From: Bacteriovoracaceae bacterium
GTDB taxonomy: Bacteria; Bdellovibrionota; Bacteriovoracia; Bacteriovoracales; Bacteriovoracaceae
Assembly: GCA_947441615.1 (NCBI GenBank)
Contig: CANEUH010000017.1
Coordinates: 10,807 to 74,806 of the forward strand
Length of the DNA: 64,000 nt
Direction: 5' to 3'
The notes under the pieces were generated by a model. It searched no databases. It was not told where the DNA came from and saw nothing but the letters and a program-made list of their open reading frames with translations. The translations under genes were made by a program, and so were the position numbers. Below are positions 11,294 to 58,599 of the stretch, piece by piece; position 1 is the first letter of the stretch, and every line of letters begins with the position of its first letter.

Positions 11294-13168
11294 TTAGGGC
11301 ACTGTATTTTTGAGACTTAAAATCTCTTTATCCAGTTTTGAGATTTCACTCAAAATTAAATCAACTTCTTGCTGAGTAGGTGAGGACTTTTGCTTTTCAA
11401 CGAGGTCTTTTCGTCGAATTTTTAGTTGGTCCATCTTCAGCATTAACTGGTAGTCCTTGAGCATTCGTCCAATGACCTTCTCATTATATTTATTTCCGTA
11501 ATTAAACAGGGCCTCTGTTCCTACTTCAATGACTTCTTTGGTGTATCCACCGTACTGAATTTCATCCTGTACGATTGACACATACTCAGCATCATCGATT
11601 TCCAAATAAATTTTAACGAGCCAGTGAATTAGTTTTTTTACCTCAGGATGCCCAATCGTGGCAAGAAATTCGTCTACCTTAAGGTGCGTCAAGAACTCGG
11701 GATGACAAAGAATTTCCTTCAGGACTAGCCTCTCACTTTTAGTCAGAGGTGGTGGAGCAGAGTTCGAAGTAAGTTCTTGCAAGTTTCGGGCCTCTTCCAG
11801 GGATTGCTCCAACTTTTGTTCGACTTCTTCTAGTTTAGGTCTCTCTTCACGGTGGTGAATCTTTTCTTTTTGATGACTTAGAAATTCTTTATAGCTTTCT
11901 AAAATAGTTGCTGGATCACTTCTTAGGCCCAAACTTTTGGCCGCATTGATGATTCTTTCCGTGGCAGCGAGGTGTTCTTTTAGTGGAGCAACGAGTTCAA
12001 ATGCCTTGTGCAGTGTGGCCAGTTTGAGATCCGTGTTTTCTGGAATTTTTTCTGGATAAATTTCTTGGATCAGGACATCTAGATAAATTGGGGCCTTCTC
12101 TAGTCTTTCAATGAGTGCTAGGCGGCCTTCGTTCACTAAAAATTCATCGGGATCTTTGTGAGGATCAAAAGTGATGTACTTCGGAAGCAGTCCAATAGAT
12201 AAAAAATCATTATTAATTCGATGCATGGCCTTTTTACCTGCGGCATCCGAGTCCATGCCGAGAAAAACATTTTTCGTCATGTTTGAAAGAAGACGCACAG
12301 ATTGATCTGAAAGGGCCGTGCCCATGGTTCCAACAGTTTGAAGAAATCCAAACTGATGCATCATGATCACATCCATATTACCCTCAACGATGATCACCTG
12401 ATCATTTTGCCGGATAGTATTTTTTCCAAAGTAAAACCCAAAAAGAATGGAGCCCTTATCAAAGGCAAACGACTCACCAGAATTTAGATACTTTGGATTT
12501 TGGTCAGGAAGGACTGCTCTAGAGCTATAGCCTCGGATTTGACCTGAGTGATCATGGATTGGAAACATCACACGGTCTCGATAAAAATCATAATGTGAAT
12601 CACGATTTTCATTGTACCGAATGATTCCAATTTCTTTTGCCACAGAGCGGGCGAGATTTCCGTCGGCACCCGGAAGCGTATCTAAGTAGTGAAAGAGGGC
12701 ATTATTCCCTGGGGCATAACCAATTTGCCACTTCTCAACCGTCTCCTCAGTCAATTTTCTCTTTTCCAGGAACTCAACATAAGGATTTGGTTTTTGAGCA
12801 GCGACTTTTTTATAAAGCTTTACTGAGGCATTTAGCACTCTAAAGGCCATTTCAATTTTCGGATTTTTTTTCTTATCTTTTTGTTCTTCGAATGGAAGTC
12901 CGAGAATACTTGAAATTTCTTTTAATGCTTCAACAAATTCCAGGCGCTTAAAATTCATCACAAAAGTGATGGCGTCCCCTCCAGCACCACAGACAAAGCA
13001 TTTATACATGCCCTTGGAGTCATTCACTTTTAAAGAGGGTTTTGTATCTGGATGAAAGGGACACAGGGCCTCGAGATTCGAGCCCTTTTTATTCAAGCTA
13101 ATAAAGTTATTGATGACCAACGAGACTGGCGATTCTTTAATCCGCTCTTTTAGTTGCTCGTATGCCAC
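11294..13168 (-). CDS. dnaG: DNA primase
   Basis: Zn-ribbon CPFHPDTKPSLKVNDSKGMYKCFVCGAGGD. TOPRIM block VIIVEGNMDVIMMHQFG ... GMDSDAAGKKA. GTG start with an AAGGAAG RBS. Lies directly upstream of rpoD. Confidence 0.9.
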   Translation of the reverse strand: MAYEQLKERIKESPVSLVINNFISLNKKGSNLEALCPFHPDTKPSLKVNDSKGMYKCFVCGAGGDAITFVMNFKRLEFVEALKEISSILGLPFEEQKDKKKNPKIEMAFRVLNASVKLYKKVAAQKPNPYVEFLEKRKLTEETVEKWQIGYAPGNNALFHYLDTLPGADGNLARSVAKEIGIIRYNENRDSHYDFYRDRVMFPIHDHSGQIRGYSSRAVLPDQNPKYLNSGESFAFDKGSILFGFYFGKNTIRQNDQVIIVEGNMDVIMMHQFGFLQTVGTMGTALSDQSVRLLSNMTKNVFLGMDSDAAGKKAMHRINNDFLSIGLLPKYITFDPHKDPDEFLVNEGRLALIERLEKAPIYLDVLIQEIYPEKIPENTDLKLATLHKAFELVAPLKEHLAATERIINAAKSLGLRSDPATILESYKEFLSHQKEKIHHREERPKLEEVEQKLEQSLEEARNLQELTSNSAPPPLTKSERLVLKEILCHPEFLTHLKVDEFLATIGHPEVKKLIHWLVKIYLEIDDAEYVSIVQDEIQYGGYTKEVIEVGTEALFNYGNKYNEKVIGRMLKDYQLMLKMDQLKIRRKDLVEKQKSSPTQQEVDLILSEISKLDKEILSLKNTVP

Positions 13169-47259: not shown

Positions 47260-47409
47260 AGGACACGGATCGGAGATACTGACCCAAAACTCAACGTCAA
47301 ATTTAGTGCCTGACTGGTTTGATCTTGTTTGGGCCAAAAACTTATCTTAGGGAAAAAATAAAAGCGGTGGTGTATTTGTATAATGTATCTCAAAGCTCTA
47401 TATTAGATC

Positions 47410-48927
47410 ATGGCTTCATTATCCTTCGCAGCCTTGGGCGCTTTTCTTTTTTCTTTACCCTTTCCTGGAATCATTTTTACCGCGGGTTTGGGTGAAGGGT
47501 GGCCGTCCTTTTTAATTGCTCTATTGGGTTTATCAGTTCTCGTTAGGGGAATTCTGAGATTACCTAAGAGGAAGAGCTTTTATTTTCTCATGATGTTTTT
47601 TGCCGTTCACTATCTCATGACCTTTTATTGGGTTACTTTTCCGATTCATGAATTTAAAGGTATTTCAAAACCAGTCAGTCATTTATTAGGCATTGTTTTT
47701 TTTCTTATCAATTTTGGACATTATTTTTTAGTTTGGGTTCTGACTAAGAATTTTAATTTTGAAAAGTTTAGTAAAGATGAAAGCCTTCGCTTCCTTGCTG
47801 TAGCTCTGTTAGTTGCGACTTTAGACTTTTATTATCCGCAAATCCTTCCTGTTCATGCAGGACATATCTTTTATTTTCTTTCCTCCTCCTTTTGGGCCTC
47901 AATTGGGGGAACCTCTTTTCTTACCTTTGTCCTTATCTATGGCCTACTTTGGTTTTGGAACTCTGGACCTAAGTTTAAGCTCACCATCGCAAGCATTTTT
48001 GTTTTAATTTTATTGGGTGTTGAATTTATTGACCAATCTGAAAAGGGGGAAGCAAAAAATATCAAGGTCTCCCTAGTCCAGCCGAACGTTCCTAATTTGG
48101 CGAAGATTCAAGCTGAATTTGGCGAAAGACAGGCGCTCCAATCGCTTATGCAGATTCTTGCTCGTCAAACTAGGCTCGCGACGGGGTTAGTTTTCTGGCC
48201 AGAAACAGCCGTGCCCTTACATGTTTCCTATGAAGAAATGTTACCTGGAGAGAGGCAGAATTGGCTCTATCGAGAAATTTTCACTCGCAGTACCTTGGTG
48301 TTTGGTGCTTACCTGAGAGAAGGGGATAAAAAGGCAACTAATAGTTTATTGGCGTGGGATTCAGGGAAGCTTCAACGTTACGATAAAGGCTATCTTAAAC
48401 CTTTCGCTGAAGAACTTCCTTTTGGTGATGCTTCTCCTATGATCGCAAATTTGATAGGACTTGAATACCCAGTCATCAGAGGTTTTAATCAAAACCTTTT
48501 TGAAATTAATGGAGTAAGATTCTTTGGAAGTGTTTGCTATGAATCTTTAAAGCCTAATTACGTAATGCAAATGTTGCGTACTTTTAAAATACGGCCACAC
48601 TTCTTAATCAATGTGGCCAACGATGGATGGTTTGGTAAAACGTCTCAACCTTATCTACATTTTTTAATGAATGAGTTTCTTTCTGAACAACTCAATGTCC
48701 CAATCATTCGAGCCGCAAATACAGGAATTTCTGGAATTGCTTTCCCGGATGGAAGAAAGTCGCTAACGACGGCCTGGCATCAAGAAACAGTCTTGAATGC
48801 TGAGATCACTTACTTTGAAACGAGACCAACTCTTTTTGAAAAACTGGGATTTTTGTCTACGTTTGGTTTTGCAGCGTTGTTATTACTAACTCATTTCCTA
48901 TTAAATTTCTTGAAACGAAAGGGATGA
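47410..48927 (+). CDS. lnt: apolipoprotein N-acyltransferase
   Basis: Multi-TM N-terminal half followed by a nitrilase-like domain with VFWPETAVP (Glu), YDKGYLKPFAE (Lys) and SVCYESL (Cys). Confidence 0.85.
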   Translation: MASLSFAALGAFLFSLPFPGIIFTAGLGEGWPSFLIALLGLSVLVRGILRLPKRKSFYFLMMFFAVHYLMTFYWVTFPIHEFKGISKPVSHLLGIVFFLINFGHYFLVWVLTKNFNFEKFSKDESLRFLAVALLVATLDFYYPQILPVHAGHIFYFLSSSFWASIGGTSFLTFVLIYGLLWFWNSGPKFKLTIASIFVLILLGVEFIDQSEKGEAKNIKVSLVQPNVPNLAKIQAEFGERQALQSLMQILARQTRLATGLVFWPETAVPLHVSYEEMLPGERQNWLYREIFTRSTLVFGAYLREGDKKATNSLLAWDSGKLQRYDKGYLKPFAEELPFGDASPMIANLIGLEYPVIRGFNQNLFEINGVRFFGSVCYESLKPNYVMQMLRTFKIRPHFLINVANDGWFGKTSQPYLHFLMNEFLSEQLNVPIIRAANTGISGIAFPDGRKSLTTAWHQETVLNAEITYFETRPTLFEKLGFLSTFGFAALLLLTHFLLNFLKRKG

Positions 48928-49622
48928 ATCCATAATTTTATCCAAGTATCATTTCCTGTTTGATTTTGTTCTTTAGGTAGATGAACTGGATTTATTCTTT
49001 TTTTTAATAACTGATCCCATATTACAAACATATGGCCTAAATTCTTATGCTGAGTTTTTTCTTGGTGATGAAGTGCATGGTATGCTGGACTTACAATCAT
49101 CTTCCCAAGTATGCCGAAGTGCCAGTTAACCTTCGCATGTGATAGTGCTGAAAATACAAACATGAATATATTTAGGAATACATAGTTTTTATAAGGGATA
49201 CCAAAACATCCGAGGATGATAAATAAAGTCGAATGAGTAATGACTGTTTCGATCGGATGAAATCGCAATGATGAATGCCAGCGTAAATCGCGAGATGAGT
49301 GATGGATGAAGTGAAGTTTCCACAAAAAAGTCTCATGGTAGATTAGGTGCCAAGTATAGGCCCATAGGTCAGCAAAGAAGATTACTAATACCCATAACAC
49401 CCATAATGGGAGGATTGAGGGAAGATTAATAAATGACCAGGTTCCAGATAGTGAAAAATAGTAAAAAAGAACTTTTGAAACGAAAAAGTTCGCAATTATT
49501 GGATTCGTCATACCAAAGAGAAGGTCGCAAAAGAAAGCTCTGCCCAGTGTATATTTTTTCTCCAGTAGCCCGAATGCAACAATATTGAGTCCAATGAATC
49601 CTAAAAATATGATCATGTTCAT
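48891..49622 (-). CDS. fatty acid hydroxylase/sterol desaturase superfamily membrane protein
   Basis: His boxes HLIYHETFLWKLHFIHHSS and YHALHH in a TM protein. The first ATG is at 49622. The track start at 49631 is TTG. Confidence 0.75.
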   Translation of the reverse strand: MNMIIFLGFIGLNIVAFGLLEKKYTLGRAFFCDLLFGMTNPIIANFFVSKVLFYYFSLSGTWSFINLPSILPLWVLWVLVIFFADLWAYTWHLIYHETFLWKLHFIHHSSRDLRWHSSLRFHPIETVITHSTLFIILGCFGIPYKNYVFLNIFMFVFSALSHAKVNWHFGILGKMIVSPAYHALHHQEKTQHKNLGHMFVIWDQLLKKRINPVHLPKEQNQTGNDTWIKLWIHPFRFKKFNRK

Positions 49623-49683
49623 GGGGTCCAAATGAGTTTTTTAAACAACTTAGATCTCAGATGTTAAAGTTAATGTGAAAATC

Positions 49684-49713
49684 TTGGATAATAGTAACAT
49701 AATAGCCTATAAT
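49684..49713 (+). promoter_or_regulatory. candidate sigma-70 promoter placing the TSS at or near the peptide ATG (possible leaderless mRNA)
   Basis: TTGGAT (49684-49689), an 18-nt spacer, then TATAAT (49708-49713). The ATG at 49720 is 6 nt after the -10 and has no SD sequence. The AT-rich background makes this tentative. Confidence 0.3.
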
Positions 49714-49719
49714 TGATTT

Positions 49720-49890
49720 ATGAATGATGATACCAAAGAAAGTGATCCAAATAATTCTGATACTTATTATTTTGGAGGTCTCACGGTAAAAAAAATCGAG
49801 ATTGTTGAGGACGTTTTTGCGATTGCACAGTCTCCAATTAATTGCATTGGACCAATTACTTTTGGACCGTTTGGACCGTTTGGATCCTAA
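49720..49890 (+). CDS. unlisted 56-aa peptide ORF, candidate RiPP precursor
   Basis: Hand translation gives MNDDTKESDPNNSDTYYFGGLTVKKIEIVEDVFAIAQSPINCIGPITFGPFGPFGS followed by a stop. It is just under the 60-aa cutoff. The stop lies 3 nt before the GT2 ATG. The C-terminal core is encoded by the 9-bp tandem repeat TTTGGACCG. Confidence 0.4.
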   Translation: MNDDTKESDPNNSDTYYFGGLTVKKIEIVEDVFAIAQSPINCIGPITFGPFGPFGS

Positions 49891-49893
49891 AGA

Positions 49894-50961
49894 ATGTTTA
49901 GTTTCATTATTCCTGCGTGCCAAGAAGAGTCTCAAATCCGACTTACCATAAGATCCATACTTAAGAACAATTGGGAATCTCCTCCAGAGATTATAGTTGT
50001 TGAAAATGGATCAACTGACCTAACAGCATCGGCCGCCAAAGAAGAAGGGGCCATTGTCCATTCTCTTTCAGTTCAAAGTCGATCCCTTGCAAGAAACTTC
50101 GGAGCTAGTCTTGCCACAAAGGAGTGGTTGGTCTTTCTTGACTCCGATGTTGTCCTCGACGAAAAGTGGAGTGAGGGACTTCTTAAAGCCGTAAAGAATC
50201 CTTGGTATGAGATCATTCAGGGCCCAATCATCCCTTCCGGAAAAGAAAATTTTTTAAATCGATTTAGATATAATCATGTGAGCGAAAAAACCAACGCAAC
50301 CTTTTGCTCATTTCTTACGGAATCATTTATACCAATTCTTAATTCAGCTTGTTTTGCTATTAAAAAGCAAAATTTTTTTGCGATAGGTGGTTTTGATGAA
50401 AACCTTCCTCGGTCTGAGGATCTTGATCTTGGCTTTAGGTGTTTCTTTGAAGGGTTAGTGTTTGCTACGGAGTCATCTATGAGATCCTATGTTTATTGGA
50501 ATCATGGAATTATTGGTTACCTTAAAAGATTCTATTTTCAAGGAGAGTCTATTCGTAAACTTGAAAGAAAATGGCAGATGAATTTGGTAGAGGATGGAAG
50601 GAGACTAGTTTCTATTAGGACAATTACGGAAAAGTTTGGTTTTTTTAAAATTCTAATTCATATTTTACAGTGGTTTGGATGGAAAAAAGAATCTCTTGGA
50701 GACCAAGTTATCATCCAAAAAAAAACAATGTGGCCTTATCGCTTAAGAGGAAGGAACTCCAGGCTTCCCTTCTTTTGGAATTGGAGGTATAAATGGTGCC
50801 CTCTGCCTCATACCCGGTTTGTGTTTGGATTAGAAGATATAAGAATTTATTATCTAAATGAAATTTTTGATATCCTCTATTGGAAAAGCGAAGGAAGCAT
50901 TCAGGATTTAGATGAAAGGCTTGACCTCATTCAAAATCCTGAAGGTTTTACGATTGCCTAG
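49894..50961 (+). CDS. family 2 glycosyltransferase with ~120-aa C-terminal extension
   Basis: FSFIIPACQEE, IIVVENGSTD and FLDSDVV (DxD) motifs. Tightly coupled to the upstream peptide ORF. Confidence 0.8.
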   Translation: MFSFIIPACQEESQIRLTIRSILKNNWESPPEIIVVENGSTDLTASAAKEEGAIVHSLSVQSRSLARNFGASLATKEWLVFLDSDVVLDEKWSEGLLKAVKNPWYEIIQGPIIPSGKENFLNRFRYNHVSEKTNATFCSFLTESFIPILNSACFAIKKQNFFAIGGFDENLPRSEDLDLGFRCFFEGLVFATESSMRSYVYWNHGIIGYLKRFYFQGESIRKLERKWQMNLVEDGRRLVSIRTITEKFGFFKILIHILQWFGWKKESLGDQVIIQKKTMWPYRLRGRNSRLPFFWNWRYKWCPLPHTRFVFGLEDIRIYYLNEIFDILYWKSEGSIQDLDERLDLIQNPEGFTIA

Positions 50962-51590
50962 TTTAGTTTTTTAAATGTCTCTGGTACTGAAAATATTTTC
51001 TGAGGAATAATAGTGTCTATTTTTTTGGCTATATAGATTGCATTTATATCTTTTGCGACTTCTCTGGTTAAAATTAGTGCTAATCGACCCGTTTGGGGTT
51101 CAACAATGCGTTCAATGTCCAAACGATTCATCACAAATGGAGTTACGGAATAGGAACTATACCATAGACTGTAAGTCATCTTCGTTTGATCATTTTTATA
51201 ATATTTAGGATAAAGCTTTTCACCCAAGATTTCCATTGAGTTAGACGGATTACGTGGTTTATCTTCACTAATTTTTAATATTGGTAGTTTGTCATAATTA
51301 ACTAAAGAATATGTTTTTTCTTTCATGTCCACAAAAGTCATTATTTTTTTTTCGTCATCAAATATATAAATAAATTCTTGTTTGTCGTTCGCTTTTAACC
51401 CAGCAGTTGTGACGATAGCTTTCTTGTTGTTTGACATATAAAAATGAAACTCATATTCCCTAGGGAGATTGCCGCTAACATAGTTTTTACTGTAGCTAAC
51501 TTCATAGTAAACATGTCCTGGAAAAGGTTTTGCCCACGCCAATGAGAATACCCAACAATTTATTACAATCAGCATGTAAAATAGCTTCAT
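50958..51590 (-). CDS. hypothetical periplasmic protein
   Basis: Signal peptide MKLFYMLIVINCWVFSLAWA. Beta-rich. No family recognised. Confidence 0.5.
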   Translation of the reverse strand: MKLFYMLIVINCWVFSLAWAKPFPGHVYYEVSYSKNYVSGNLPREYEFHFYMSNNKKAIVTTAGLKANDKQEFIYIFDDEKKIMTFVDMKEKTYSLVNYDKLPILKISEDKPRNPSNSMEILGEKLYPKYYKNDQTKMTYSLWYSSYSVTPFVMNRLDIERIVEPQTGRLALILTREVAKDINAIYIAKKIDTIIPQKIFSVPETFKKLN

Positions 51591-51637
51591 AAGTACCCCT
51601 TTCTCATTTAGTAACTTTTATAATAGCATAAATCATT

Positions 51638-52606
51638 ATGCAGAATTCGCAATTGGCCGATGCTGAAAATAGTGCTTTGATATGGATCCTCAATAAGGCC
51701 CAGGAATGGGAAATTCAGTTTGAGTTAAATCAGCAATTGGTGGAGCATTTCAATATCCATTTATATAGTTGTCATTTAAGGAAGTTCGGACATTTGGCCA
51801 TAGGGTTTGGGGCCGACCATAATAGGCGACGCGCTCAGCTGAAGGCTGCAATGGAATCTTTAGAAAGACGATTGGTAATTGATAACAGTTGGAAACACTC
51901 AAGTGGAACTTCTTTGCATATTGACCCTCATATTGCCCGTGAAAAGGCCATCAATGAGGCACTTGAAAGAGATGCTTTCTTTTGTCATTTCTATACTCAA
52001 ACTTCTTTTGGCCTGTTAGATGATTGTAAGCTCTCGGATGAGTGGAGTGATTTACTTAAAAAAAGAAACCTCATAGGAGAGTTGAGGCGACTTCATTCTC
52101 ATGGAGATATAAACGTAGTAGTAGCAGCACTTAGAGATGAGGAAAGAAAAATTGGTATATGTATCGGACTAGGAGCTAACCAATCAGCCAAAAAGGCAGC
52201 TATTCACGCACAGAATGAGTGTTTGAGTTTTTATTCCTATTTGGTGAGCTCAAAATCTCCTGTTAGTTTTAATATCAATCAATTTCGATCAAAAGAAGAT
52301 TGGAGTGTTTTCGACCATGGTCATCTTGGTAAAGATATAGAATATGGGGAGTGGTTTTGGGATACGTACCTGGCCTCGCCATCCTCCAACCGAACGACTC
52401 TAAACGGATTACCTACGGCCCAGGAATACCAAATCACTGGGGTGATTCAAGATGCGCCCTTTTCTCTTTGGAGGGCAGATCAGACAGGCTTGCAAGAGCC
52501 CTTCTGGGGAAGATATGATGAATTGAATCAAAAGAGATTAGAGGAATTTTGTGGAAAAAAATGGGAGCAGATCATTCGTCCGTCCTATCCCCACTGTTTT
52601 ACATAA
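51638..52606 (+). CDS. YcaO-like family protein (short form)
   Basis: GFGADHNRRRAQLKAAMESLERR, then GTSLHIDPHIAREKAINEALERDAFF, then IGLGANQSAKKAAIHAQNEC. This pattern of G-x-G ... A-x-x-E-x-x-ER and ExxERDAF blocks is characteristic of YcaO/SagD-type domains. Confidence 0.55.
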   Translation: MQNSQLADAENSALIWILNKAQEWEIQFELNQQLVEHFNIHLYSCHLRKFGHLAIGFGADHNRRRAQLKAAMESLERRLVIDNSWKHSSGTSLHIDPHIAREKAINEALERDAFFCHFYTQTSFGLLDDCKLSDEWSDLLKKRNLIGELRRLHSHGDINVVVAALRDEERKIGICIGLGANQSAKKAAIHAQNECLSFYSYLVSSKSPVSFNINQFRSKEDWSVFDHGHLGKDIEYGEWFWDTYLASPSSNRTTLNGLPTAQEYQITGVIQDAPFSLWRADQTGLQEPFWGRYDELNQKRLEEFCGKKWEQIIRPSYPHCFT

Positions 52607-52608
52607 GT

Positions 52609-53103
52609 ATGATTAAATATATTCCAAATGTTTTTTCTAAAGCGGAGCATTCCCTCATCAAAGATTATGCCACTAAACTATACTCACAAAGAGATGTGTT
52701 AGGGTGGGATGAAAAATTTAATCGTCATTTCGTGCACAATCCTAAGCCGCTACAGAAGTTCCATCTTTTGCTAGAGGAATTTATGAGTGAACACTACGGA
52801 AGAAAACTAAAAAAAAGCTATTGCTACTTAGCGATGTATGGACCGAATGGTGTCTGCAAGCGTCACGTTGATCGTATCCAATGCCAGTACTCTTTCGATT
52901 ACTGTCTTACATTTGATAAACCTTGGCCTTTGTTCGTTGAAGAGAATGGCAGTGCTGAAAGATTTGATTTAGAAGAAAACAGTGCTCTGGTTTATCGCGG
53001 TACCGAGCAGTTCCATTGGAGAGAAGATAGGAAAGAAGGTCATTTTTGCCACATGATCTTCTTTCACTTTGTACCCATAGAATTTGAAGGACAATTAATT
53101 TAG
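52609..53103 (+). CDS. 2OG-Fe(II) oxygenase superfamily protein (prolyl-hydroxylase-like)
   Basis: KRHVDR (HxD) ... ALVYRGTEQFHWRE (distal His) ... an RKEG basic residue about 10 aa later. The ATG at 52609 lies 2 nt after the YcaO stop. Confidence 0.5.
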   Translation: MIKYIPNVFSKAEHSLIKDYATKLYSQRDVLGWDEKFNRHFVHNPKPLQKFHLLLEEFMSEHYGRKLKKSYCYLAMYGPNGVCKRHVDRIQCQYSFDYCLTFDKPWPLFVEENGSAERFDLEENSALVYRGTEQFHWREDRKEGHFCHMIFFHFVPIEFEGQLI

Positions 53104-53411
53104 ATAACTTCGATGATTTTGTACTCGATAAGATTTTTTATAAAAGCTGCAACATCCTCTTGAAACTGATTATTATCCCAGTTTTTCCCTTCTTGTAGGG
53201 TCAGCATCTTATTGATCAGGCTTTGTTTTTGAGAAATAGCTTCAAAAATTTCAATTGCGATGCCGTCTATTTCAAAAATCGACTCGTCTTCATTGAAAAG
53301 AAATGCAACAATCTTACCATCCGACTTTCTAAAAGCGACTTCACTACTTAATTGGTAGAATTCTGCGATGTGCTTTTTATTGAAGAATTGGATTAAAGTA
53401 TTTTTGGTCAT
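53100..53411 (-). CDS. PqqD-family protein (stand-alone RiPP recognition element-like)
   Basis: 103 aa. ...SDGKIVAFLFNEDESIFEIDGIAIEIFEAISQKQSLINKM...FQEDVAAFIKNLIEYKIIEV follows the PqqD/RRE pattern: beta strands, a 'L-N-x-x-g-x-x-I' helix, and a C-terminal Dv..Fl..L...gli helix. Confidence 0.55.
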   Translation of the reverse strand: MTKNTLIQFFNKKHIAEFYQLSSEVAFRKSDGKIVAFLFNEDESIFEIDGIAIEIFEAISQKQSLINKMLTLQEGKNWDNNQFQEDVAAFIKNLIEYKIIEVI

Positions 53412-53420
53412 GGATTACCT

Positions 53421-54287
53421 ATGGGGAAATGTTATCAGGATTTAATTCTTAATATCAAGAAAAAGATCGCAGAGATTCGAACCGATGTCGATGACATTAA
53501 TGGGCCTATGGAAATTTTAAACAGCACCCACATGCTGAATGAAAATTTTTTAGATGAGCTTCCAGAAATTCTTCGGGATAGACCAATGGCCCGACAAACT
53601 TTCAATGGTCAAGATTTTAGTCAATTCCCGCTCACCCTGTTGAACTACGAAGGATACAACTTAGATTTATACTTCTGGAACAAGGCCAATACTTCCATTC
53701 ATGATCATAATTTCAGTGGTGCGTTCAAGGTTATTAAAGGCATTTATTTTCAAACGACGTTCCGATTTGAAAAAATAAAAGTATACAATGACTGGTTAGC
53801 GCAAGGGGATTTGAATAAGATTAAGAGTGAAAAGCTCATCGCTGGTGATGTCATAGGTATAAAAAGGGGCAGTGATTTCATCCATGAAACCTACCATTTC
53901 CAGGGAGAATGTGTCACAGCTTGTCTTCGTTCAGAGGCAAGAACTGGACCAATTCACAGTTTCTTTCCACCCTCTCTCAGGCTAAAATCTGTACCCTTTG
54001 ATTTAAAAGAAATCAAGATGCTTGATTATATTCGTTTCCTTATGCTTACTATTGATGAAAATACAGAAACGATTCGCTCTCTCTTAAGTGATTTTAGTAA
54101 TCCTATCCTTTGCCAAATTATATTTAGTTATAATGTTCCTGAATGGCTCAAGCGGGTCGAGCTTAGAAGCATTGCAATGGAAGTATTACAAAACCGTCAT
54201 CAAAATGAGGAATGGTTTCCAGAAATAAAACGCTGCCTTGAAAGGCAAAAGATTATGAACACGAAGCTTGGTCATCTAATGACTTGA
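53421..54287 (+). CDS. cupin-fold protein, cysteine dioxygenase type I-like
   Basis: NTSIHDHNFSGAFKVIKGIY resembles the CDO motif S-x-IHDH-x-x-S-x-x-F-x-K-x-L-x-G. A later FIHETYH could supply the third His. Confidence 0.45.
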   Translation: MGKCYQDLILNIKKKIAEIRTDVDDINGPMEILNSTHMLNENFLDELPEILRDRPMARQTFNGQDFSQFPLTLLNYEGYNLDLYFWNKANTSIHDHNFSGAFKVIKGIYFQTTFRFEKIKVYNDWLAQGDLNKIKSEKLIAGDVIGIKRGSDFIHETYHFQGECVTACLRSEARTGPIHSFFPPSLRLKSVPFDLKEIKMLDYIRFLMLTIDENTETIRSLLSDFSNPILCQIIFSYNVPEWLKRVELRSIAMEVLQNRHQNEEWFPEIKRCLERQKIMNTKLGHLMT

Positions 54288-55104
54288 AAAGCGACTGCCT
54301 TTTCAAAGCACTCACTAATTTCATTTTTTTCAGACAAAAGAGAATCCATTTAACAGGGTCCCAGTTATACCATTTTCTTCCAGCGCGATAATCGTTTGGG
54401 AGCATATGATGATAATGATGGTAGCCATCCCCCATCGTTAAGATAGCAATCCATAGGGAGTTTCCTGCGGTGATATTTTTTAGCGGGCGAGATCCAAACA
54501 TATGGCAGTAAGAGTTGATGAGGAAGATGGAATGATGGAACAAGAAGATTCGAAAAAATCCAAGAAAGAAGAGACCGAAGGCAAGATTTCCAATCAGTAT
54601 CCCTAAAAAAATCGGAAGAATTAATCCCATGAGTATGGATAAAGGGATGATCCATTTATTTTGCCAATTAATCCAGTAATCACTTTCTAGGTCTTGAACA
54701 AAGCTGACGGTGGAGCTGACTTCATCAGAATGAATCGCCCAGCCTAGATGGGCATATAAAAAACCCTTACTGATCGAGTATGGATCCATTTTTTCGTCTT
54801 CCGGATAAGCATGATGATGGCGATGATCTCGTGCCCATTTAAGTGCTGAATTCATAAAAGCAGCTGGCCCTAATAAAAGGAAAAAAAATTTCAAAGAAAA
54901 TTTGGGCGTAAAAGATTTATGGGAGAAGTAGCGATGATATCCAGCACATATAGAAAAAGCGATTAGTAAATATAAAACAAGGAATGTCGTGATTTCTGTT
55001 AGGCCAATTCGAATCCCTCCTGTAAATAAAAAATATAGGCCAATGATGGACATCACAGTACTAAGGGAGAAGAAAAAAATATTTATCCTTTTAAAAGATT
55101 TCAT
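54253..55104 (-). CDS. acyl-CoA (delta-9-type) fatty acid desaturase
   Basis: Three His boxes GYHRYFSHKSF, ARDHRHHHAY and GDGYHHYHH in a 4-TM protein. Confidence 0.85.
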   Translation of the reverse strand: MKSFKRINIFFFSLSTVMSIIGLYFLFTGGIRIGLTEITTFLVLYLLIAFSICAGYHRYFSHKSFTPKFSLKFFFLLLGPAAFMNSALKWARDHRHHHAYPEDEKMDPYSISKGFLYAHLGWAIHSDEVSSTVSFVQDLESDYWINWQNKWIIPLSILMGLILPIFLGILIGNLAFGLFFLGFFRIFLFHHSIFLINSYCHMFGSRPLKNITAGNSLWIAILTMGDGYHHYHHMLPNDYRAGRKWYNWDPVKWILFCLKKMKLVSALKRQSLFKSLDDQASCS

Positions 55105-55308
55105 ACCTAGAGGAGTATCCTTGATAAGTTTTATTATAAATTATTTTGGTTCTTTTTGCAGAAAATAGGTGACTCAAGACATGTGATTTTAAAGTATGGA
55201 ATTTCTACTTACCAACCCAAGCCTTTTCCGAAAACACTCTAAAAGCCTTGTATTGACTAATGATTCCTGATATTTAAGAAGAAAAAATTGATTTAAAGAG
55301 AGCGGTTT

Positions 55309-55977
55309 ATGGCATTCATTGAAGTCACTGATCTTAAGAAGACTTACTCAAGTAATGATAACCAAGTTGAAATTTTGAAAGGCTTGAACTTGGAGATAGG
55401 AAAAGGGGAGTTTGTTTCTCTTATGGGTCCCAGTGGCGCTGGAAAGAGTACTTTCCTTCAGCTTTTGGGAGCACTAGATAGGCCCACCAGCGGAGAAATC
55501 ATTATCGACGGAAAAAAAATTGGATCAATGACTGATAAAGAACTCACCATTTTTAGAAGAAGGAATTTAGGTTTTATTTTCCAGTTCTTTAATTTAATGC
55601 CCACACTTTCTGTTCTTGAAAATGTTGTCCTCCCTTGTTTTCTTGATGGAAAAAAATTAAAAGAAGTGAGGGGAGATGCTGAAGAAATTCTTTCAAGACT
55701 TGGGCTTTCTCATCGATTAGATCACCGGCCTTATCAATTATCCGGAGGCGAAATGCAGCGAGTTGCTATCGCCAGAGCACTCATTAATAAACCTTCTCTC
55801 ATCTTGGCGGATGAGCCAACAGGGAATCTTGATAGTAAGAACGGTAAAGAGGTTCTTTCTATTTTAAAAAACCTCGTCACAGAGTTTAAAGTGACACTCA
55901 TTATGGTTACCCATGATAAATCTGCTGCAGATTATGCTGATCGCAAGATTTTCATGCAAGATGGAACCGTCATTTAA
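55309..55977 (+). CDS. ABC transporter ATP-binding protein (MacB/LolD-type)
   Basis: Walker A GPSGAGKST, Q-loop, signature LSGGEMQRVAIARAL, Walker B LILADEPTGNLD and H-loop VTHD. Confidence 0.9.
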   Translation: MAFIEVTDLKKTYSSNDNQVEILKGLNLEIGKGEFVSLMGPSGAGKSTFLQLLGALDRPTSGEIIIDGKKIGSMTDKELTIFRRRNLGFIFQFFNLMPTLSVLENVVLPCFLDGKKLKEVRGDAEEILSRLGLSHRLDHRPYQLSGGEMQRVAIARALINKPSLILADEPTGNLDSKNGKEVLSILKNLVTEFKVTLIMVTHDKSAADYADRKIFMQDGTVI

Positions 55978-55986
55978 GGGAGATCT

Positions 55987-58599
55987 ATGATTTCAAATCT
56001 TTTTCGATATTTTAGCCTTCGTTATCTTCTCATGAATCCTTTCAGGACTTTCCTGACATTTTTAGGAGTGGCATTAGGAATTTCACTTTTTTTATCCATA
56101 CTCTTATTGAATGATGCAACCCTGAGATCAATGGATGAGAACATTGAATCTATGACAGGTAAAGCTGATCTAACGATAACTTCAGATGGTATGGGGTTTG
56201 AGGATTCTGTTCTTGAAAAGGTAAAAAATATCCCACAAATAAAATCCGCCATCCCACTAATCATTAATTATGCTTACATGGAGAATGGATCTGTTGGATC
56301 TAGTGGGCCAATGATCTTTCTTGGTATTGATCTATTAAAAGATAACTCTGTACGTGAATACAATAAGGAAGGAGGGGATATTATCCCTGATCCTCTAGCG
56401 TTTCTCAATCAAGCAGACAGTATTATTGCAACAAAGTCTTGGGTAAAACGGCATCATTTAGAGATGGAAAGTTCGATTGATCTTCTGACGAAAGAGGGCC
56501 TAAAGTCATTTGCTATCAGAGGAATGATTGATGATATTGGTCCTGCGAAGGCGTTTGATGGAAATATGGCGATCATGGATATCGACGGGGCCAGGTTTAA
56601 TTTTGGCAGGGATGGTCTGTATGATCGAATTGATCTCATCCTTCAAAAAGGTGTGAGTGTTAAGATTCTTAAGAATGATCTTAAGAAGCTTTTAGGTTCA
56701 AGATTTAAAGTTGAAGATAAAAAAGAACAATCAGAATCCATGCAGCAATTGGTGAAATCAATTCAAGATGTTTCTGGAATGCTTGGCCTCATTGCCTTTC
56801 TTGTGGGATTTTTAATTATTGTCAATACTGTGAATACGGCGATTTCTCAAAGAAGAAAAGATATAGGATCCCTGAGAGCATTTGGAGCAGAGTCGGTTCA
56901 TATCATTACTCTTTTTGCCGGTGAGTTTATCTTTCTAGCACTCTGTAGCTCTCTCTTGGGTTGTTGGCTTGGATTTTTAATTGCACAAGGCTCGGCCGAT
57001 CAGGTTGCTGCCGGATTAAATTCAACGCTCTTTACGAATGTTCCAAAAATGGACATTGTTTTTGAGTCTCGGCATCTTTTTTCAGGACTCTTTTTAGGTT
57101 TATTAAGTTCTACGATTGCTCTTGTTTATCCTCTTTATAAAGCACTACAAATTCATCCGATTGAAGCCATTCGACCAACGACGGTTGATTTTGGTCTCCA
57201 TCAAAAACCGAAGGGGCTTGTGTGGGCGGGGAGAGTAGGTTTTCTACTTTTCATTTTTACAGTCATTGCTGCTTATTTTTCCAACACAGAAGAATTTCTT
57301 CAAAATAAAGAAATCCAACCATTTTTTCTTCTTACGGGCATTACGAGTATCATGTTAACGGGACCCTATTTGGTCCTAGTTGTCCTTTCAAATCTTCAAA
57401 GATTACCCCTCCCATTCCTTGTGAAGTTTTCTTTGGCCAATTTATTAAAAAATCCAGGGCGTACAGCGAGTACATCAATCCACTTGTCTCTGGGATTTAG
57501 TTTAGTCATTGTTGTTTCTGCGATAAATATTTCCTTTAAATCCACCATCATCAATTGGGCCAACATCATCACAAGCGCCCCTAATATTGTTAACCTTAGT
57601 TCTTGGGGGAGTCTCTCAGGTCTTCAGGTTCAGCCTCTTCATGAATCTTTAAAAGAAAAATTGCAGGCCCTCCCTCATCTGAATCCAGAAAATAAGTCTC
57701 CTTTAACGGGGATTAGAATCGTTCCCGTTACCATTGAAGGGAGTCGATTTATGATTAAGGCTTTTGACATGCCTGGAGGAAATGCAGAATTTCACTTTAT
57801 TGATCCCATCGAGGGGGACCGTAGAGAACTTGGTAAAAGACTATTTGATCCCCAAGTTGAAAGTGTTCTCTTCTCTGAAACAATGCTGAAGTTTTTTCGC
57901 AAGAAAGTTGGGGATACCTTTACTATGGAAACCCCGATGGGGAAGGCAACATTCGTTATCGCTGGTAACATTAGAGAGTTTGCGAGTCCCAATGGTGTTG
58001 TCTATTTTAATCGTGATGTTTATAAAAAATATTGGAAGGATCCTCTCGTCACTTTGATTTCAATTAATCACTCATCAGATATTTCAAGCCGTGACTATCA
58101 GGCACTCATTGGTCCAGAGTTAAATAAGAAAGAACATCTGATGGTTAATTTACCTTCAAAAATTAGTGAAGAGGTTGAAAAAAATCTCAATAATAATATG
58201 GCGATGTCTGATTCTACGAAGTGGATCGCACTCTTTATCGGTACTCTGGGACTTCTTAATTCATTCTTAATCAGTATTCTTCAAAGATTCAGGGAGCTAG
58301 GTTGTATTCGATCTATTGGCATGACTAAAGGTCAGCTTATTGGGATGATTCTCTTCGAATCAGTTACGTTAGGTATTACAGGAGTCATTATCGCTTTTGT
58401 TCTTACCCTGCCTATCGGTTACATTTGGGTGAATTCCACCTTAAGTCATCTTCTAGGGTGGAAGGTTCAGTTTTACTTTACGGGCATGGATTTTTTGATT
58501 CTCTTTATCGTTGGTTTAGTTGTTTCTTTTTCCGCAGGCCTATTTCCCGCTCTGAAAGCAGCTAAACTAAACTTAAGAGAAGCACTTGAGTACGAGTAA
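55987..58599 (+). CDS. ABC transporter permease with two FtsX-like domains and large periplasmic domains
   Basis: 870 aa. Two repeats of the periplasmic MacB-like domain plus the 3-TM FtsX module: ISQRRKDIGSLRAFGA... and ILQRFRELGCIRSIGMTKGQL.... Confidence 0.85.
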   Translation: MISNLFRYFSLRYLLMNPFRTFLTFLGVALGISLFLSILLLNDATLRSMDENIESMTGKADLTITSDGMGFEDSVLEKVKNIPQIKSAIPLIINYAYMENGSVGSSGPMIFLGIDLLKDNSVREYNKEGGDIIPDPLAFLNQADSIIATKSWVKRHHLEMESSIDLLTKEGLKSFAIRGMIDDIGPAKAFDGNMAIMDIDGARFNFGRDGLYDRIDLILQKGVSVKILKNDLKKLLGSRFKVEDKKEQSESMQQLVKSIQDVSGMLGLIAFLVGFLIIVNTVNTAISQRRKDIGSLRAFGAESVHIITLFAGEFIFLALCSSLLGCWLGFLIAQGSADQVAAGLNSTLFTNVPKMDIVFESRHLFSGLFLGLLSSTIALVYPLYKALQIHPIEAIRPTTVDFGLHQKPKGLVWAGRVGFLLFIFTVIAAYFSNTEEFLQNKEIQPFFLLTGITSIMLTGPYLVLVVLSNLQRLPLPFLVKFSLANLLKNPGRTASTSIHLSLGFSLVIVVSAINISFKSTIINWANIITSAPNIVNLSSWGSLSGLQVQPLHESLKEKLQALPHLNPENKSPLTGIRIVPVTIEGSRFMIKAFDMPGGNAEFHFIDPIEGDRRELGKRLFDPQVESVLFSETMLKFFRKKVGDTFTMETPMGKATFVIAGNIREFASPNGVVYFNRDVYKKYWKDPLVTLISINHSSDISSRDYQALIGPELNKKEHLMVNLPSKISEEVEKNLNNNMAMSDSTKWIALFIGTLGLLNSFLISILQRFRELGCIRSIGMTKGQLIGMILFESVTLGITGVIIAFVLTLPIGYIWVNSTLSHLLGWKVQFYFTGMDFLILFIVGLVVSFSAGLFPALKAAKLNLREALEYE

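What the first reader, a model, noticed from the sequence alone, without database searches (positions are those of the whole stretch)
49720..49890. Unlisted 56-aa ORF with leader/core organisation and a 9-bp tandem repeat encoding GPF-GPF-G
**Seen in sequence**
- ATG at 49720 and TAA at 49888-49890. The product is MNDDTKESDPNNSDTYYFGGLTVKKIEIVEDVFAIAQSPINCIGPITFGPFGPFGS.
- The N-terminal ~35 aa are acidic and amphipathic, which is leader-like.
- The last ~20 aa contain the only Cys and a Gly/Pro/Phe repeat ending in Ser.
- The repeat is encoded by TTTGGACCG TTTGGACCG TTTGGA (49861-49884), a slippage-prone unit that could vary in copy number between strains.
- There is no SD sequence, and a TATAAT box ends 6 nt before the ATG.
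- A 92-aa antisense ORF in the track (49657-49935) masks this region.

**Inference**
- This is the best precursor candidate for the adjacent GT2, YcaO and RRE enzymes.
- Cys41, Ser/Thr, the Pro/Phe C-H bonds and the Gly-X amides are plausible modification sites.
- The promoter geometry suggests a leaderless transcript.
Basis: partly seen in the sequence, partly recalled or inferred. Interest (0 to 1): 0.8.

Follow-up and report, generated by a model that had tools for sequence, protein, structure and literature searches.

The report
Conserved precursor peptide, new RiPP-like cluster
The unannotated 56-codon reading frame is a real, conserved gene that most likely encodes the substrate peptide of a previously undescribed peptide-modification gene cluster, one that unusually combines YcaO, two iron oxygenases, a sugar transferase and lipid-handling enzymes.

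Summary
The ORF at 49720-49890 (+) is exactly as described. It is a genuine gene.

- **Relatives.** Eleven distinct relatives of 54-82 aa occur in metagenome assemblies.
- **Shared layout.** All have an invariant YYFGGL motif, a conserved leader, and a variable C-terminal part built of 3-8 Gly-Pro-Phe/Tyr/Ile units that ends in GPF-x-[S/P/T].
- **Selection.** Leader dN/dS is 0.04-0.17 while synonymous sites are near saturation.
- **Antisense ORF.** The 92-aa antisense ORF carries stop codons in all three divergent relatives and has dN/dS near or above 1, so it is rejected.
- **Gene neighbourhood.** In every locus long enough to show its flanks, the peptide gene abuts or overlaps a soluble GT2 gene. 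It lies in a block that has diverged in parallel and contains:
  - a catalytically intact Lnt-type N-acyltransferase;
  - a YcaO;
  - a 2OG/Fe(II) oxygenase (AF2 pLDDT 95, prolyl-hydroxylase-like fold);
  - a thiol-dioxygenase-like 3-His cupin (pLDDT 92);
  - a PqqD-type RRE;
  - a secreted 210-aa protein;
  - often membrane fatty-acid hydroxylase and desaturase homologues.
- **Flanks.** Genes outside this block differ between loci.

The precursor reading is therefore well supported. The actual chemistry is inferred only: azoline formation, hydroxylation, Cys oxidation, glycosylation and acylation.

A TATAAT-N6/7-ATG spacing recurs in six lineages. This fits a leaderless transcript but is untested.

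No matching family was found in Pfam, NCBIfam or the literature searched.

The parts
49720..49890 (+). Precursor-peptide gene, 56 aa. Conserved leader is about aa 1-41 (49720-49842), with the invariant YYFGGL at 49765-49782. The variable Cys/Gly-Pro-Phe core is aa 42-56 (49843-49887).
   Evidence: Sequence. There are 11 distinct relatives. Leader dN/dS is 0.04-0.17.
49861..49884 (+). Perfect 9-bp tandem repeat (TTTGGACCG x 2.7) that encodes FGP-FGP-FG within the GPF units.
   Evidence: TRF result. Unit number differs between lineages, and Pro codons are homogenised within lineages.
49685..49713 (+). Sigma-70-like promoter candidate (TGGATA-17-TATAAT). It ends 6 nt before the ATG, so a leaderless mRNA is possible.
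   Evidence: 10 of 12 matches, tied best in the region. TATAAT-N6-ATG is conserved in window, L012, L003, L008 and L001, and TATAAT-N7-ATG in L015. Not tested experimentally.
49657..49935 (-). Antisense 92-aa ORF. It is not a gene.
   Evidence: This frame carries stop codons in L003, L008 and L001, and its dN/dS is 0.9-5.
47410..48927 (+). Lnt-type (apolipoprotein N-acyltransferase family) membrane acyltransferase, always the gene upstream of the peptide or cluster.
   Evidence: TIGR00546 scores 173 bits against a cut-off of 132.9. CN_hydrolase and LNT_N domains were found. The E-K-C motifs are invariant in 7 lineages. It overlaps or abuts cluster genes in L013, L014 and L019.
48891..49622 (-). 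Membrane fatty-acid hydroxylase-superfamily (di-iron) protein. The likely true start is the ATG at 49622.
   Evidence: Pfam FA_hydroxylase E 1.3e-21, with a weak OlsE-like hit. Orthologues occur in L001, L003, L008 and L019.
49894..50961 (+). Soluble GT2 glycosyltransferase. It starts 3 nt after the peptide stop codon.
   Evidence: Pfam Glycos_transf_2 E 7e-23. Best NCBIfam hit is MftF at 72 bits, below its cut-off of 280. Best PDB hit is GmaR. The junction is abutting or overlapping in all lineages.
50958..51590 (-). Secreted 210-aa protein of unknown fold with an N-terminal signal peptide. It is present in every cluster.
   Evidence: No family or PDB match was found.
51638..52606 (+). Divergent stand-alone YcaO, 322 aa, with an invariant ExxERD ATP/Mg motif.
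   Evidence: Pfam YcaO E 6e-12. Weak SagD and McrA-YcaO hits. Motif conservation in 8 lineages.
52609..53103 (+). 164-aa 2-oxoglutarate/Fe(II) oxygenase with a prolyl-hydroxylase-like fold. H86, D88 and H136 are invariant.
   Evidence: AF2 pLDDT 95.1. Foldseek PDB top hits are 2OG oxygenases, including P. putida P4H, PHD2, PiuC and AlkB. Alignment.
53100..53411 (-). 103-aa PqqD-type RiPP recognition element (RRE).
   Evidence: Pfam PqqD is hit by 5 of 5 orthologues, best E 1.3e-5. The window copy scores 18.4 bits, below the gathering score of 23.4. Weak TbiB1 and lasso-PqqD PDB hits.
53421..54287 (+). 288-aa thiol-dioxygenase-like 3-His cupin (H94, H96 and H155 invariant) with a C-terminal helical domain.
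   Evidence: AF2 pLDDT 91.9. All top-50 Foldseek PDB hits are CDO, ADO, PCO or other thiol dioxygenases. The sequence profile matches CDO at E 0.017.
54253..55104 (-). Membrane fatty-acid desaturase-family protein. It recurs in the cluster, but not in every locus.
   Evidence: Pfam FA_desaturase E 2.7e-15. Orthologues occur in L014, L015, L019 and the P0001 contig.
55309..58599 (+). LolD/MacB-like ABC ATPase plus an 870-aa double-FtsX permease. It may be an associated exporter, but membership of the cluster is uncertain.
   Evidence: An ABC or MacB gene is nearby in L003 and L015 but absent near L001.

Best explanation
The ORF encodes the precursor (substrate) peptide of an uncharacterised RiPP-like biosynthetic cluster.

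**Shown here**
- It is a conserved, selected coding gene.
- It has a conserved N-terminal leader (YYFGGL-x-V...VF...P) and a variable C-terminal core. The core is a short, usually Cys-containing segment followed by 3-8 Gly-Pro-(Phe/Tyr/Ile) units, and it ends in GPF-x-[S/P/T].
- It is always juxtaposed with a GT2 gene, abutting or overlapping it.
- It sits in a block that has diverged in parallel and encodes Lnt, YcaO, a 2OG oxygenase, a PqqD-type RRE, a thiol-dioxygenase-like cupin and a secreted protein.

**Inferred**
1. The strand-prone leader segment (LTVKKIEIVEDVFAIA) is bound by the PqqD-type RRE. The RRE presents the core to the cytoplasmic enzymes.
2. The YcaO uses ATP to activate a backbone amide. 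The most likely outcome is a thiazoline at the Cys residue(s) next to the leader/core junction.
3. The prolyl-hydroxylase-like 2OG oxygenase hydroxylates the GP[F/Y] repeats, at Pro or at the aromatic residue.
4. The 3-His cupin oxidises a thiol.
5. The GT2 adds a sugar.
6. After export and leader removal, the cluster's Lnt-type enzyme N-acylates the peptide at the membrane. The fatty-acid hydroxylase and desaturase homologues tailor the acyl chain. The product would be a membrane-associated glyco-lipopeptide.

In the window's clade the gene has its own promoter. The TATAAT-N6-ATG geometry would give a leaderless mRNA.
For: - **Real gene.**
  - 4 homologues were found among 5.8e9 protein clusters.
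  - A profile search of 1.84e9 representatives gave 6 small-peptide hits.
  - Further copies were read from loci found through neighbouring genes.
- **Selection.** Leader dN/dS is 0.04-0.17 with pS 0.56-0.87. All other frames contain stops or have dN/dS near or above 1.
- **Layout.** YYFGGL and the terminal GPF are invariant. The core varies in length and sequence.
- **Synteny.** The gene order Lnt, (FAH), peptide, GT2, u210(-), YcaO, 2OG oxygenase, RRE(-), cupin recurs in the window and in L001, L003, L008, L013, L014, L015 and L019, with differing flanks and some internal shuffling.
- **Co-divergence.** All of these proteins are 42-50% identical to the window copies in the distant lineages.
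- **Coupling to GT2.** Stop and start are 2-3 nt apart or overlap in every lineage.
- **Enzyme identities.**
  - YcaO: Pfam hit plus ExxERD motif.
  - RRE: 5 of 5 orthologues hit PqqD.
  - 2OG oxygenase fold with an HxD...H triad.
  - Thiol-dioxygenase fold with a 3-His site.
  - Lnt above the TIGR00546 cut-off with an intact E-K-C triad.
- **Promoter.**
Against: - **No chemistry has been observed.** Every modification step is inferred from enzyme family.
- **Usual partners are missing.**
  - No E1/ThiF-like or TfuA partner and no FMN dehydrogenase of known YcaO pathways.
  - No leader protease in the conserved block.
- **Cys is not universal.** The L015/P0012 lineage has no Cys yet keeps both the cupin with its 3-His site and the YcaO. 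Cys cannot be the universal target.
- **RRE evidence is uneven.**
  - The RRE is not seen in L013.
  - The window's own RRE scores below Pfam's gathering threshold.
- **Lnt may be housekeeping.**
  - It passes the equivalog cut-off, and I could not test whether the genome has a second copy.
  - The leader has no signal peptide or h-region, so how the peptide would reach Lnt's periplasmic active site is unexplained.
- **Narrow sampling.**
  - The family is known only from about 11 metagenomic lineages of unknown taxonomy.
  - Two scans of GTDB representative genomes found nothing.
Confidence: 0.8

Rival explanations
1. The peptide is a scaffold or multi-cassette donor, not the final product. 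The repeated GP[F/Y] tripeptide units, or the invariant C-terminal GPF-x-[S/P/T], would be modified on the leader-tethered peptide and then excised. The result would be a small glycosylated or lipidated molecule or cofactor. This is the logic of PQQ, mycofactocin and pearlin-type pathways.
For: - A PqqD-type RRE is present, and the GT2's best NCBIfam hit is the mycofactocin glycosyltransferase MftF.
- The extreme C-terminal motif is invariant while the rest of the core varies.
- Unit copy number varies from 3 to 8, as in multi-core precursors.
- The many lipid and sugar enzymes would also suit a small-molecule product.
Against: - The MftF score (72 bits) is far below its cut-off of 280 and reflects the generic GT-A domain.
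- The conserved block has no radical-SAM enzyme, protease or peptidase to excise units.
- 3-residue units have no flanking recognition sites.
Confidence: 0.1
2. The ORF is a real small protein but is not post-translationally modified by its neighbours. It could be a small regulatory or membrane-associated protein of a lipid or lipoprotein-modification locus (Lnt, GT2, FA hydroxylase, desaturase). The YcaO, RRE and oxygenases would then act on something else.
For: - Lnt-GT2 adjacency without any peptide is known from the actinobacterial lnt/ppm1 operons (my own knowledge, not tested here).
- Lnt passes the housekeeping equivalog model.
- The locus holds several lipid enzymes.
- The leader has no export signal.
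Against: - The leader/core conservation pattern and hypervariable repeat core are typical of RiPP precursors, not of regulators.
- An RRE and a YcaO are nearly always present, and no other small conserved ORF was seen in the block.
- Sister clusters share the YcaO-like, cupin, GT2, PqqD and 2OG-oxygenase genes. They lack Lnt and lipid enzymes, yet again carry a small Cys/Gly-rich peptide gene.
Confidence: 0.08
3. The coding gene is the antisense 92-aa ORF (49657-49935, minus strand), or the region is non-coding, and the 56-aa frame is a chance ORF.
For: The 92-aa ORF is open in the window. Small ORFs are common by chance at this GC content.
Against: - The antisense frame has stop codons in L003, L008 and L001, with dN/dS of 0.9-5.
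- The sense frame is open in every relative, with dN/dS of 0.04-0.17.
- The sense-frame product is recovered as a conserved family.
Confidence: 0.01

Closest known systems
YcaO-dependent azol(in)e RiPPs (TOMMs / linear azole-containing peptides such as microcin B17, streptolysin S and plantazolicin)
   Same: - Small precursor with a conserved leader.
- Core in which Cys sits next to Gly or Ser, for example CGSSCGC, SCNCAGCC and SCGSG in relatives.
- A YcaO with the ExxERD motif; its best NCBIfam hit is the SagD family.
- An RRE-type leader-binding domain.
   Different: - No E1/Ocin-ThiF-like partner and no FMN dehydrogenase.
- The RRE is a free-standing PqqD-like protein.
- The YcaO scores far below the SagD cut-off (31.6 against 219 bits).
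- Most of the core is Gly-Pro-Phe repeats with nothing to cyclise.
- One lineage has no Cys.
- Extra enzymes are present: a 2OG oxygenase, a thiol-dioxygenase-like cupin, GT2, Lnt and lipid di-iron enzymes.
DAG-RiPPs, RiPP-lipoprotein hybrids (PMC13056109, PNAS 2026)
   Same: A ribosomal peptide is cytoplasmically modified and linked to the lipoprotein-acylation machinery, including Lnt. A Cys lies at the leader/core boundary in most members.
   Different: - DAG-RiPP precursors carry a Sec-type signal peptide and a lipobox. They use the cell's housekeeping Lgt, LspA and Lnt, and the modifying enzyme is an MNIO.
- Here the leader is acidic with no hydrophobic h-region.
- The Lnt homologue is encoded in the cluster itself. 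No Lgt or Lsp is nearby.
- The modifying enzymes are a YcaO, a 2OG oxygenase, a cupin and GT2.
Mycofactocin system (MftA-F)
   Same: - Short peptide with an invariant C-terminal motif.
- PqqD-type RRE (MftB-like).
- A GT2 whose best NCBIfam hit is MftF.
   Different: - No radical-SAM MftC, no MftD and no MftE.
- The MftF score is 72 bits against a cut-off of 280.
- The C-terminus is GPF-x-[SPT], not GVY.
- YcaO and Lnt are absent from mft loci.
Glycocins (sublancin SunA/SunS and relatives)
   Same: A GT2-family enzyme is encoded next to a small Cys-containing peptide. S- or O-glycosylation of a ribosomal peptide is possible.
   Different: - The SunS model TIGR04195 scores 11.8 bits against a cut-off of 350.
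- There is no helix-loop-helix disulfide architecture.
- Many additional enzymes are present.
Collagen-type (Gly-Pro-X)n substrates with prolyl 4-hydroxylase, and N-terminal-Cys oxidases (PCO/ADO)
   Same: - The core is (Gly-Pro-Phe)n.
- It is paired with a P4H/PHD-like 2OG oxygenase fold and a glycosyltransferase.
- A PCO/ADO/CDO-like 3-His cupin is paired with a peptide Cys.
   Different: - Only 3-8 triplets are present, too few for a collagen helix.
- Pro is in the X position, not the Y position.
- The resemblance is by fold only (TM about 0.7, 11-17% identity).
- No substrate evidence exists.

Membership tests
RiPP precursor peptide (generic definition) | Short ribosomal ORF with a conserved recognition (leader) region and a variable core | tested here: met
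   In 11 sequences, YYFGGL, V23, F33 and P39 are invariant. The C-terminal region varies in length and sequence. Selection acts on the leader.
RiPP precursor peptide (generic definition) | Conserved co-localisation with a leader-binding RRE and modifying enzymes | tested here: met
   Synteny holds in 8 lineages with different flanks. The RRE is not seen in L013.
RiPP precursor peptide (generic definition) | Peptide is actually post-translationally modified and the leader is removed | not testable with these tools
   This needs mass spectrometry of the expressed peptide.
TOMM / linear azol(in)e peptides | YcaO cyclodehydratase with ATP-binding motif | tested here: met
   Pfam YcaO E 6e-12. ExxERD is invariant. 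TIGR03604 scores only 31.6 bits against a cut-off of 219.
TOMM / linear azol(in)e peptides | E1-like/Ocin-ThiF-like partner (fused or separate) and an FMN dehydrogenase | tested here: not met
   No cluster protein gave such a Pfam or NCBIfam hit. The two unknown proteins fold as a 2OG oxygenase and a cupin.
TOMM / linear azol(in)e peptides | Core rich in Cys/Ser/Thr in all members | tested here: inconclusive
   There are 1-5 Cys in 10 of 11 sequences. The L015/P0012 lineage has none, only Thr.
Thioamidated RiPPs (YcaO-TfuA) | TfuA partner adjacent to YcaO | tested here: not met
   The gene after YcaO is a 2OG oxygenase fold. No TfuA hit was found.
DAG-RiPPs / bacterial lipoproteins | N-terminal Sec-type signal peptide with a hydrophobic h-region and a lipobox Cys | tested here: not met
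   Leader net charge is -5. Hydropathy in a 9-residue window peaks at 1.9, and there is no hydrophobic stretch before the Cys. SP[ILM]x-C only loosely resembles a lipobox.
Glycocins | SunS-family S-glycosyltransferase | tested here: not met
   TIGR04195 scores 11.8 bits against a cut-off of 350.
Mycofactocin | MftF glycosyltransferase and radical-SAM MftC | tested here: not met
   TIGR03965 scores 72 bits against a cut-off of 280. The block has no radical-SAM gene.
Apolipoprotein N-acyltransferase (Lnt) family, for the upstream gene | TIGR00546 equivalog score and Glu-Lys-Cys catalytic triad | tested here: met
   173 bits against a cut-off of 132.9. WPE, K-PF and CYE motifs are invariant in 7 lineages. 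Whether it is the housekeeping copy was not testable.
Leaderless mRNA | Transcription start at or within a few nt of the start codon | not testable with these tools
   The only evidence is promoter geometry: TATAAT-N6/7-ATG in 6 lineages. L013 and L019 differ.

The most novel reading that the evidence does not exclude
The cluster makes a new class of ribosomal glyco-lipopeptide. A short collagen-like (Gly-Pro-Phe)n peptide would be hydroxylated by a prolyl-hydroxylase-like enzyme and glycosylated by the coupled GT2. It would also be modified at Cys by a YcaO and by a peptide thiol dioxygenase. A dedicated, cluster-encoded Lnt paralogue would then N-acylate it without any Sec/lipobox signal, and the acyl chain would be tailored by dedicated hydroxylase and desaturase enzymes. 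This would be the first RiPP pathway to carry its own Lnt-type acyltransferase and a thiol-dioxygenase-type enzyme.
Probability: 0.25. Interest if true: 0.85.

Novelty: new variant of a known kind. Interest (0 to 1): 0.68.

Why it matters
- **Annotation gap.** The peptide was not called as a gene in the window's source. A plausible-looking antisense ORF hides it.
- **New enzyme combination.** If the cluster works as inferred, it adds a new RiPP class. I found no precedent for this enzyme set in Pfam, NCBIfam or the literature searched. The set is a partner-less YcaO, a free PqqD RRE, a P4H-like 2OG oxygenase, a thiol-dioxygenase-like cupin, a coupled GT2, and a cluster-encoded Lnt with lipid-tailoring di-iron enzymes.
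- **Testable systems.** It would give tractable models for three questions:
  1. What YcaO enzymes do without their known partners.
  2. Whether PCO/ADO-type thiol dioxygenases act on bacterial peptides.
  3. Whether Lnt-type enzymes can lipidate non-lipoprotein substrates.
- **Evolving repeats.** The repeat core, homogenised by slippage, is a natural example of fast-evolving core copy number.

Tried and rejected
1. **Antisense 92-aa ORF.** Rejected because of stops in three relatives and relaxed dN/dS.
2. **Upstream extensions of the ORF.** P0003 and P0004 were called with 12-15 extra residues. Rejected because the window and L003 have an in-frame TGA two codons before the ATG.
3. **Relatives in genome representatives.** Two GTDB scans, with GT2 and with a YcaO alignment, returned nothing. 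The taxon stays unknown. The window is chromosomal (dnaG-rpoD), 37% GC, and from a diderm-type organism (Lnt, RND pump).
4. **Metagenome scans.**
   - The peptide alignment found nothing.
   - A degenerate DNA pattern for YYFGGL[TK]V gave 120 loci, all chance matches.
5. **Window source.** The window's own peptide and GT2 are not on record in the assembly index.
6. **Peptide family matches.** None in Pfam or NCBIfam.
7. **Rfam.** It found only a tRNA in the window.
8. **Conventional lipoprotein or DAG-RiPP precursor.** Rejected because there is no signal peptide.
9. **Cys42 as the universal modification site.** Rejected because the L015/P0012 lineage has no Cys.
10. **Leader homology with the sister-cluster peptide (...KVVKIEGVAIYAPQSCGGGGCGY).** Not significant by hhalign: probability 1.2%, E 0.043.
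11. **Secreted 210-aa protein.** No PDB or Pfam assignment.
12. **SD absence as evidence for leaderless translation.** Weak, because most ORFs in the window lack a clear SD.
Full report
**Observation**

The window has an ATG at 49720 and a TAA at 49888-49890. The product is MNDDTKESDPNNSDTYYFGGLTVKKIEIVEDVFAIAQSPINCIGPITFGPFGPFGS.

- TRF confirms a perfect 9-bp repeat, TTTGGACCG x 2.7, at 49861-49884.
- TATAAT occupies 49708-49713, 6 nt before the ATG. Together with TGGATA 17 nt upstream it scores 10 of 12, tied for the best sigma-70-like score in 47300-55400. Such matches are no more frequent in that region than in shuffled sequence.
- There is no Shine-Dalgarno motif. Only about a third of ORFs in this window have one, so the absence says little.
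- The antisense 92-aa ORF at 49657-49935 exists.
- An ORF of this size is not unusual by chance, so the case rests on comparison with relatives.

**Is it a gene?**

A search of 5.8e9 protein clusters returned four small homologues, P0001-P0004. A profile search of 1.84e9 representatives returned P0001 and P0004 again and added P0011, P0012, P0013 and P0015. Reading loci reached through neighbouring genes added copies in L013 and L019 and located the P0013 and P0012 lineages in L014 and L015. That makes 11 distinct sequences of 54-82 aa.

A codon alignment of the four divergent close lineages was analysed frame by frame.

| Frame | Result |
|---|---|
| Sense | pS 0.56-0.87 (near saturation), pN 0.07-0.19, dN/dS 0.04-0.17 |
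| Antisense 92-aa ORF | Stop codons in L003, L008 and L001; dN/dS 0.9-5 |
| All other frames | Contain stops in every sequence, including the window |

The N-terminal extensions called for P0003 and P0004 are not conserved. The window and L003 have an in-frame TGA two codons upstream of the ATG. The gene is real, and the antisense ORF is not.

**Anatomy of the family**

- The N-terminus is polar and usually acidic.
- It is followed by an invariant YYFGGL-x-V motif.
- Next comes a strand-prone alternating segment, for example KKIEIVEDVFAIAQSP.
- Then comes a short segment that usually holds 1-5 Cys. The L015/P0012 lineage has none.
- The peptide ends with 3-8 Gly-Pro-(Phe/Tyr/Ile) units, always finishing in GPF-x-[S/P/T].
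- Repeat number differs between lineages.
- Within each lineage the Pro codon of the repeats is uniform: CCG in the window, CCC in L003 and CCA in L008. This is what slippage-driven homogenisation would produce.

**Context**

Eight lineages have enough flanking sequence to read: the window, L001/2, L003, L008, L013, L014, L015 and L019.

In all of them the peptide gene is followed by a GT2 gene whose start lies 2-3 nt after the peptide stop or overlaps it.

The same set of genes recurs around it:

- an Lnt-type acyltransferase upstream;
- a secreted protein of about 210 aa on the opposite strand;
- a 307-322-aa YcaO;
- a 160-165-aa protein;
- a PqqD-like protein of about 103 aa on the opposite strand (not seen in L013);
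- a cupin protein of 285-294 aa (not seen on the short L014 contig, and L008 ends before it).

Fatty-acid hydroxylase and desaturase homologues recur at changing positions. In L019 both are present and abut the cluster.

Genes outside this set differ between loci:

- L001 has a LanC/kinase/C39-ABC cluster.
- L003 has DUF1330/OYE and a pectate lyase.
- L013 has a Metallophos gene.

Lnt, YcaO, GT2 and the cupin are each 42-50% identical between the window and the distant lineages. This is parallel divergence of one unit.

In L013, L014 and L019, Lnt overlaps or abuts cluster genes, so it is operonic with them. In the window's clade the hydroxylase gene sits on the opposite strand between Lnt and the peptide. 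This is also the clade in which the peptide gene has its own TATAAT-N6-ATG promoter-like site.

**What the neighbours are**

| Protein | Evidence |
|---|---|
| Lnt | TIGR00546 at 173 bits against a cut-off of 132.9; invariant WPE, K-PF and CYE catalytic motifs |
| GT2 | Soluble GT-A domain plus a C-terminal domain of about 100 aa; best family hits are generic (MftF 72/280 bits; PDB GmaR) |
| YcaO | Pfam E 6e-12; invariant ExxERD; far from the SagD, McrA and other curated clades |
| 103-aa protein | PqqD-type RRE; the window copy is sub-threshold (18.4 against 23.4 bits), but 5 of 5 orthologues hit PqqD, best E 1.3e-5; weak PDB hits to TbiB1 and a lasso PqqD |
| 164-aa protein | No sequence match; AF2 pLDDT 95; 2OG/Fe(II) oxygenase fold, top hits include P. 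putida P4H, PHD2, PiuC and AlkB; invariant HxD...H |
| 288-aa protein | AF2 pLDDT 92; all 50 best PDB matches are thiol dioxygenases (CDO, ADO, PCO4 and others); invariant 3-His site; extra helical domain |
| 210-aa protein | Signal peptide in all lineages; no assignable fold |

**Sister architecture**

Homologues of the cupin led to L018, L020 and L021.

- A YcaO-like protein, the cupin, GT2, PqqD and the 2OG oxygenase occur there.
- They sit with a radical-SAM enzyme, a carbamoyltransferase and a 405-aa membrane protein.
- There is no Lnt or lipid enzyme.
- A different small peptide gene is present: ...KVKVVKIEGVAIYAPQSCGGGGCGY.
- Its resemblance to the leader studied here is not significant.

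This architecture shows that the five-enzyme core travels with small Cys/Gly-rich peptides. The Lnt, lipid-enzyme and secreted-protein genes are specific to the GPF-repeat family.

**Mechanism**

Shown here:

- a selected precursor-like peptide;
- its genetic coupling to GT2;
- its embedding in a unit with YcaO, an RRE, a 2OG oxygenase, a cupin and Lnt.

Inferred:

1. The RRE binds the strand-prone leader.
2. The YcaO carries out ATP-dependent backbone activation. The most likely result is a thiazoline at the junctional Cys. Relatives with CGSSCGC or SCNCAGCC cores look TOMM-like.
3. The GP[F/Y] repeats are hydroxylated.
4. A thiol is oxidised.
5. A sugar is added.
6. The peptide is N-acylated at the membrane by the Lnt homologue, with acyl tailoring by the di-iron enzymes.

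Unresolved points:

- The conserved block has no leader protease and no E1-like or TfuA partner.
- One lineage has no Cys.
- The leader has no export signal.
- It is unknown whether Lnt is a dedicated copy.

**Known families**

The peptide matches no Pfam or NCBIfam model. The defining features of TOMMs (partner and dehydrogenase), thioamitides (TfuA), glycocins (SunS), mycofactocin (MftC/F) and DAG-RiPPs (signal peptide and lipobox) were tested and not met.

The closest lipid-RiPP precedent is the DAG-RiPP class (PMC13056109). It uses housekeeping Lgt, Lsp and Lnt through a signal peptide.

No paper in the held library contains GPFGPF. None links RiPPs with thiol dioxygenases or links YcaO with cysteine dioxygenase in a biosynthetic context.

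**Limits**

- Taxonomy is unknown. Both GTDB scans were empty.
- The window is chromosomal, with dnaG-rpoD at 9539-13168.
- Metagenome pattern scans added nothing.
- All chemistry is inference.

**Verdict**

I rate it a new variant within the RiPP kind, with interest of about 0.7.

Noticed in passing
L012 2530-2550, compared with window 49685-49713: The nearly identical relative L012 (peptide 96% identical) has an 11-nt deletion between the TGG of the -35-like element and the ATAAT upstream of TATAAT. This changes the promoter spacing. It could be a natural promoter variant or an assembly artefact.
   Followed up: partly
L018 6374-6520; L020 6378-6506; L021 3855-3983: Sister clusters carry a 42-aa peptide, MSKDQNSNGKKKQYTKPKVKVVKIEGVAIYAPQSCGGGGCGY. 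It sits with a radical-SAM enzyme, a carbamoyltransferase, GDPD, a YcaO-like 292-aa protein, the cupin, a 405-aa membrane protein, GT2, PqqD and the 2OG oxygenase. There is no Lnt. This looks like a second uncharacterised RiPP family that shares the five-enzyme core.
   Followed up: partly
L001 354-6903 / L002 290-6878: A lanthipeptide-like cluster lies directly upstream of the Lnt gene in the most divergent close relative. It contains small ORFs, a LanC-like protein, a Ser/Thr kinase, two unknown proteins and a C39-peptidase ABC transporter.
   Followed up: no
window 48891-55104: Gene orientation alternates at almost every gene, with very tight junctions.
- Convergent overlaps: Lnt/FAH 37 nt, GT2/u210 4 nt, oxygenase/RRE 4 nt, cupin/desaturase 35 nt.
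- Only 9 nt separate the divergent starts of the RRE (53411) and the cupin (53421).
- The core layout is conserved in L001, L003, L015 and L019.
This implies promoters inside neighbouring coding regions and possible antisense regulation.
   Followed up: no
window 55309-58599: A LolD/MacB-like ABC ATPase (TIGR02211 at 262 bits, below its cut-off of 308) sits just downstream of the cluster with an 870-aa permease that has two FtsX-type halves. An ABC or MacB-type gene is also near the L003 and L015 clusters. It may export or extract a lipidated product.
   Followed up: partly
window 52549-53103: The mechanical ORF list gives 184 aa from a TTG that overlaps the YcaO 3' end. Relatives show the true start is the ATG at 52609 (164 aa), 3 nt after the YcaO stop.
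   Followed up: yes
P0014 (2281 aa): A very large protein matches the YYFGG-containing part of the peptide profile in 7 separate stretches (E 1e-4). It may be an unrelated repeat protein that shares the motif.
   Followed up: no
window 6305-13168: A Snf2-family helicase (1036 aa) lies next to the dnaG-rpoD pair. This shows the window is chromosomal. A P-type Ca-ATPase, an RND pump and a chromate transporter lie between this region and the cluster.
   Followed up: no
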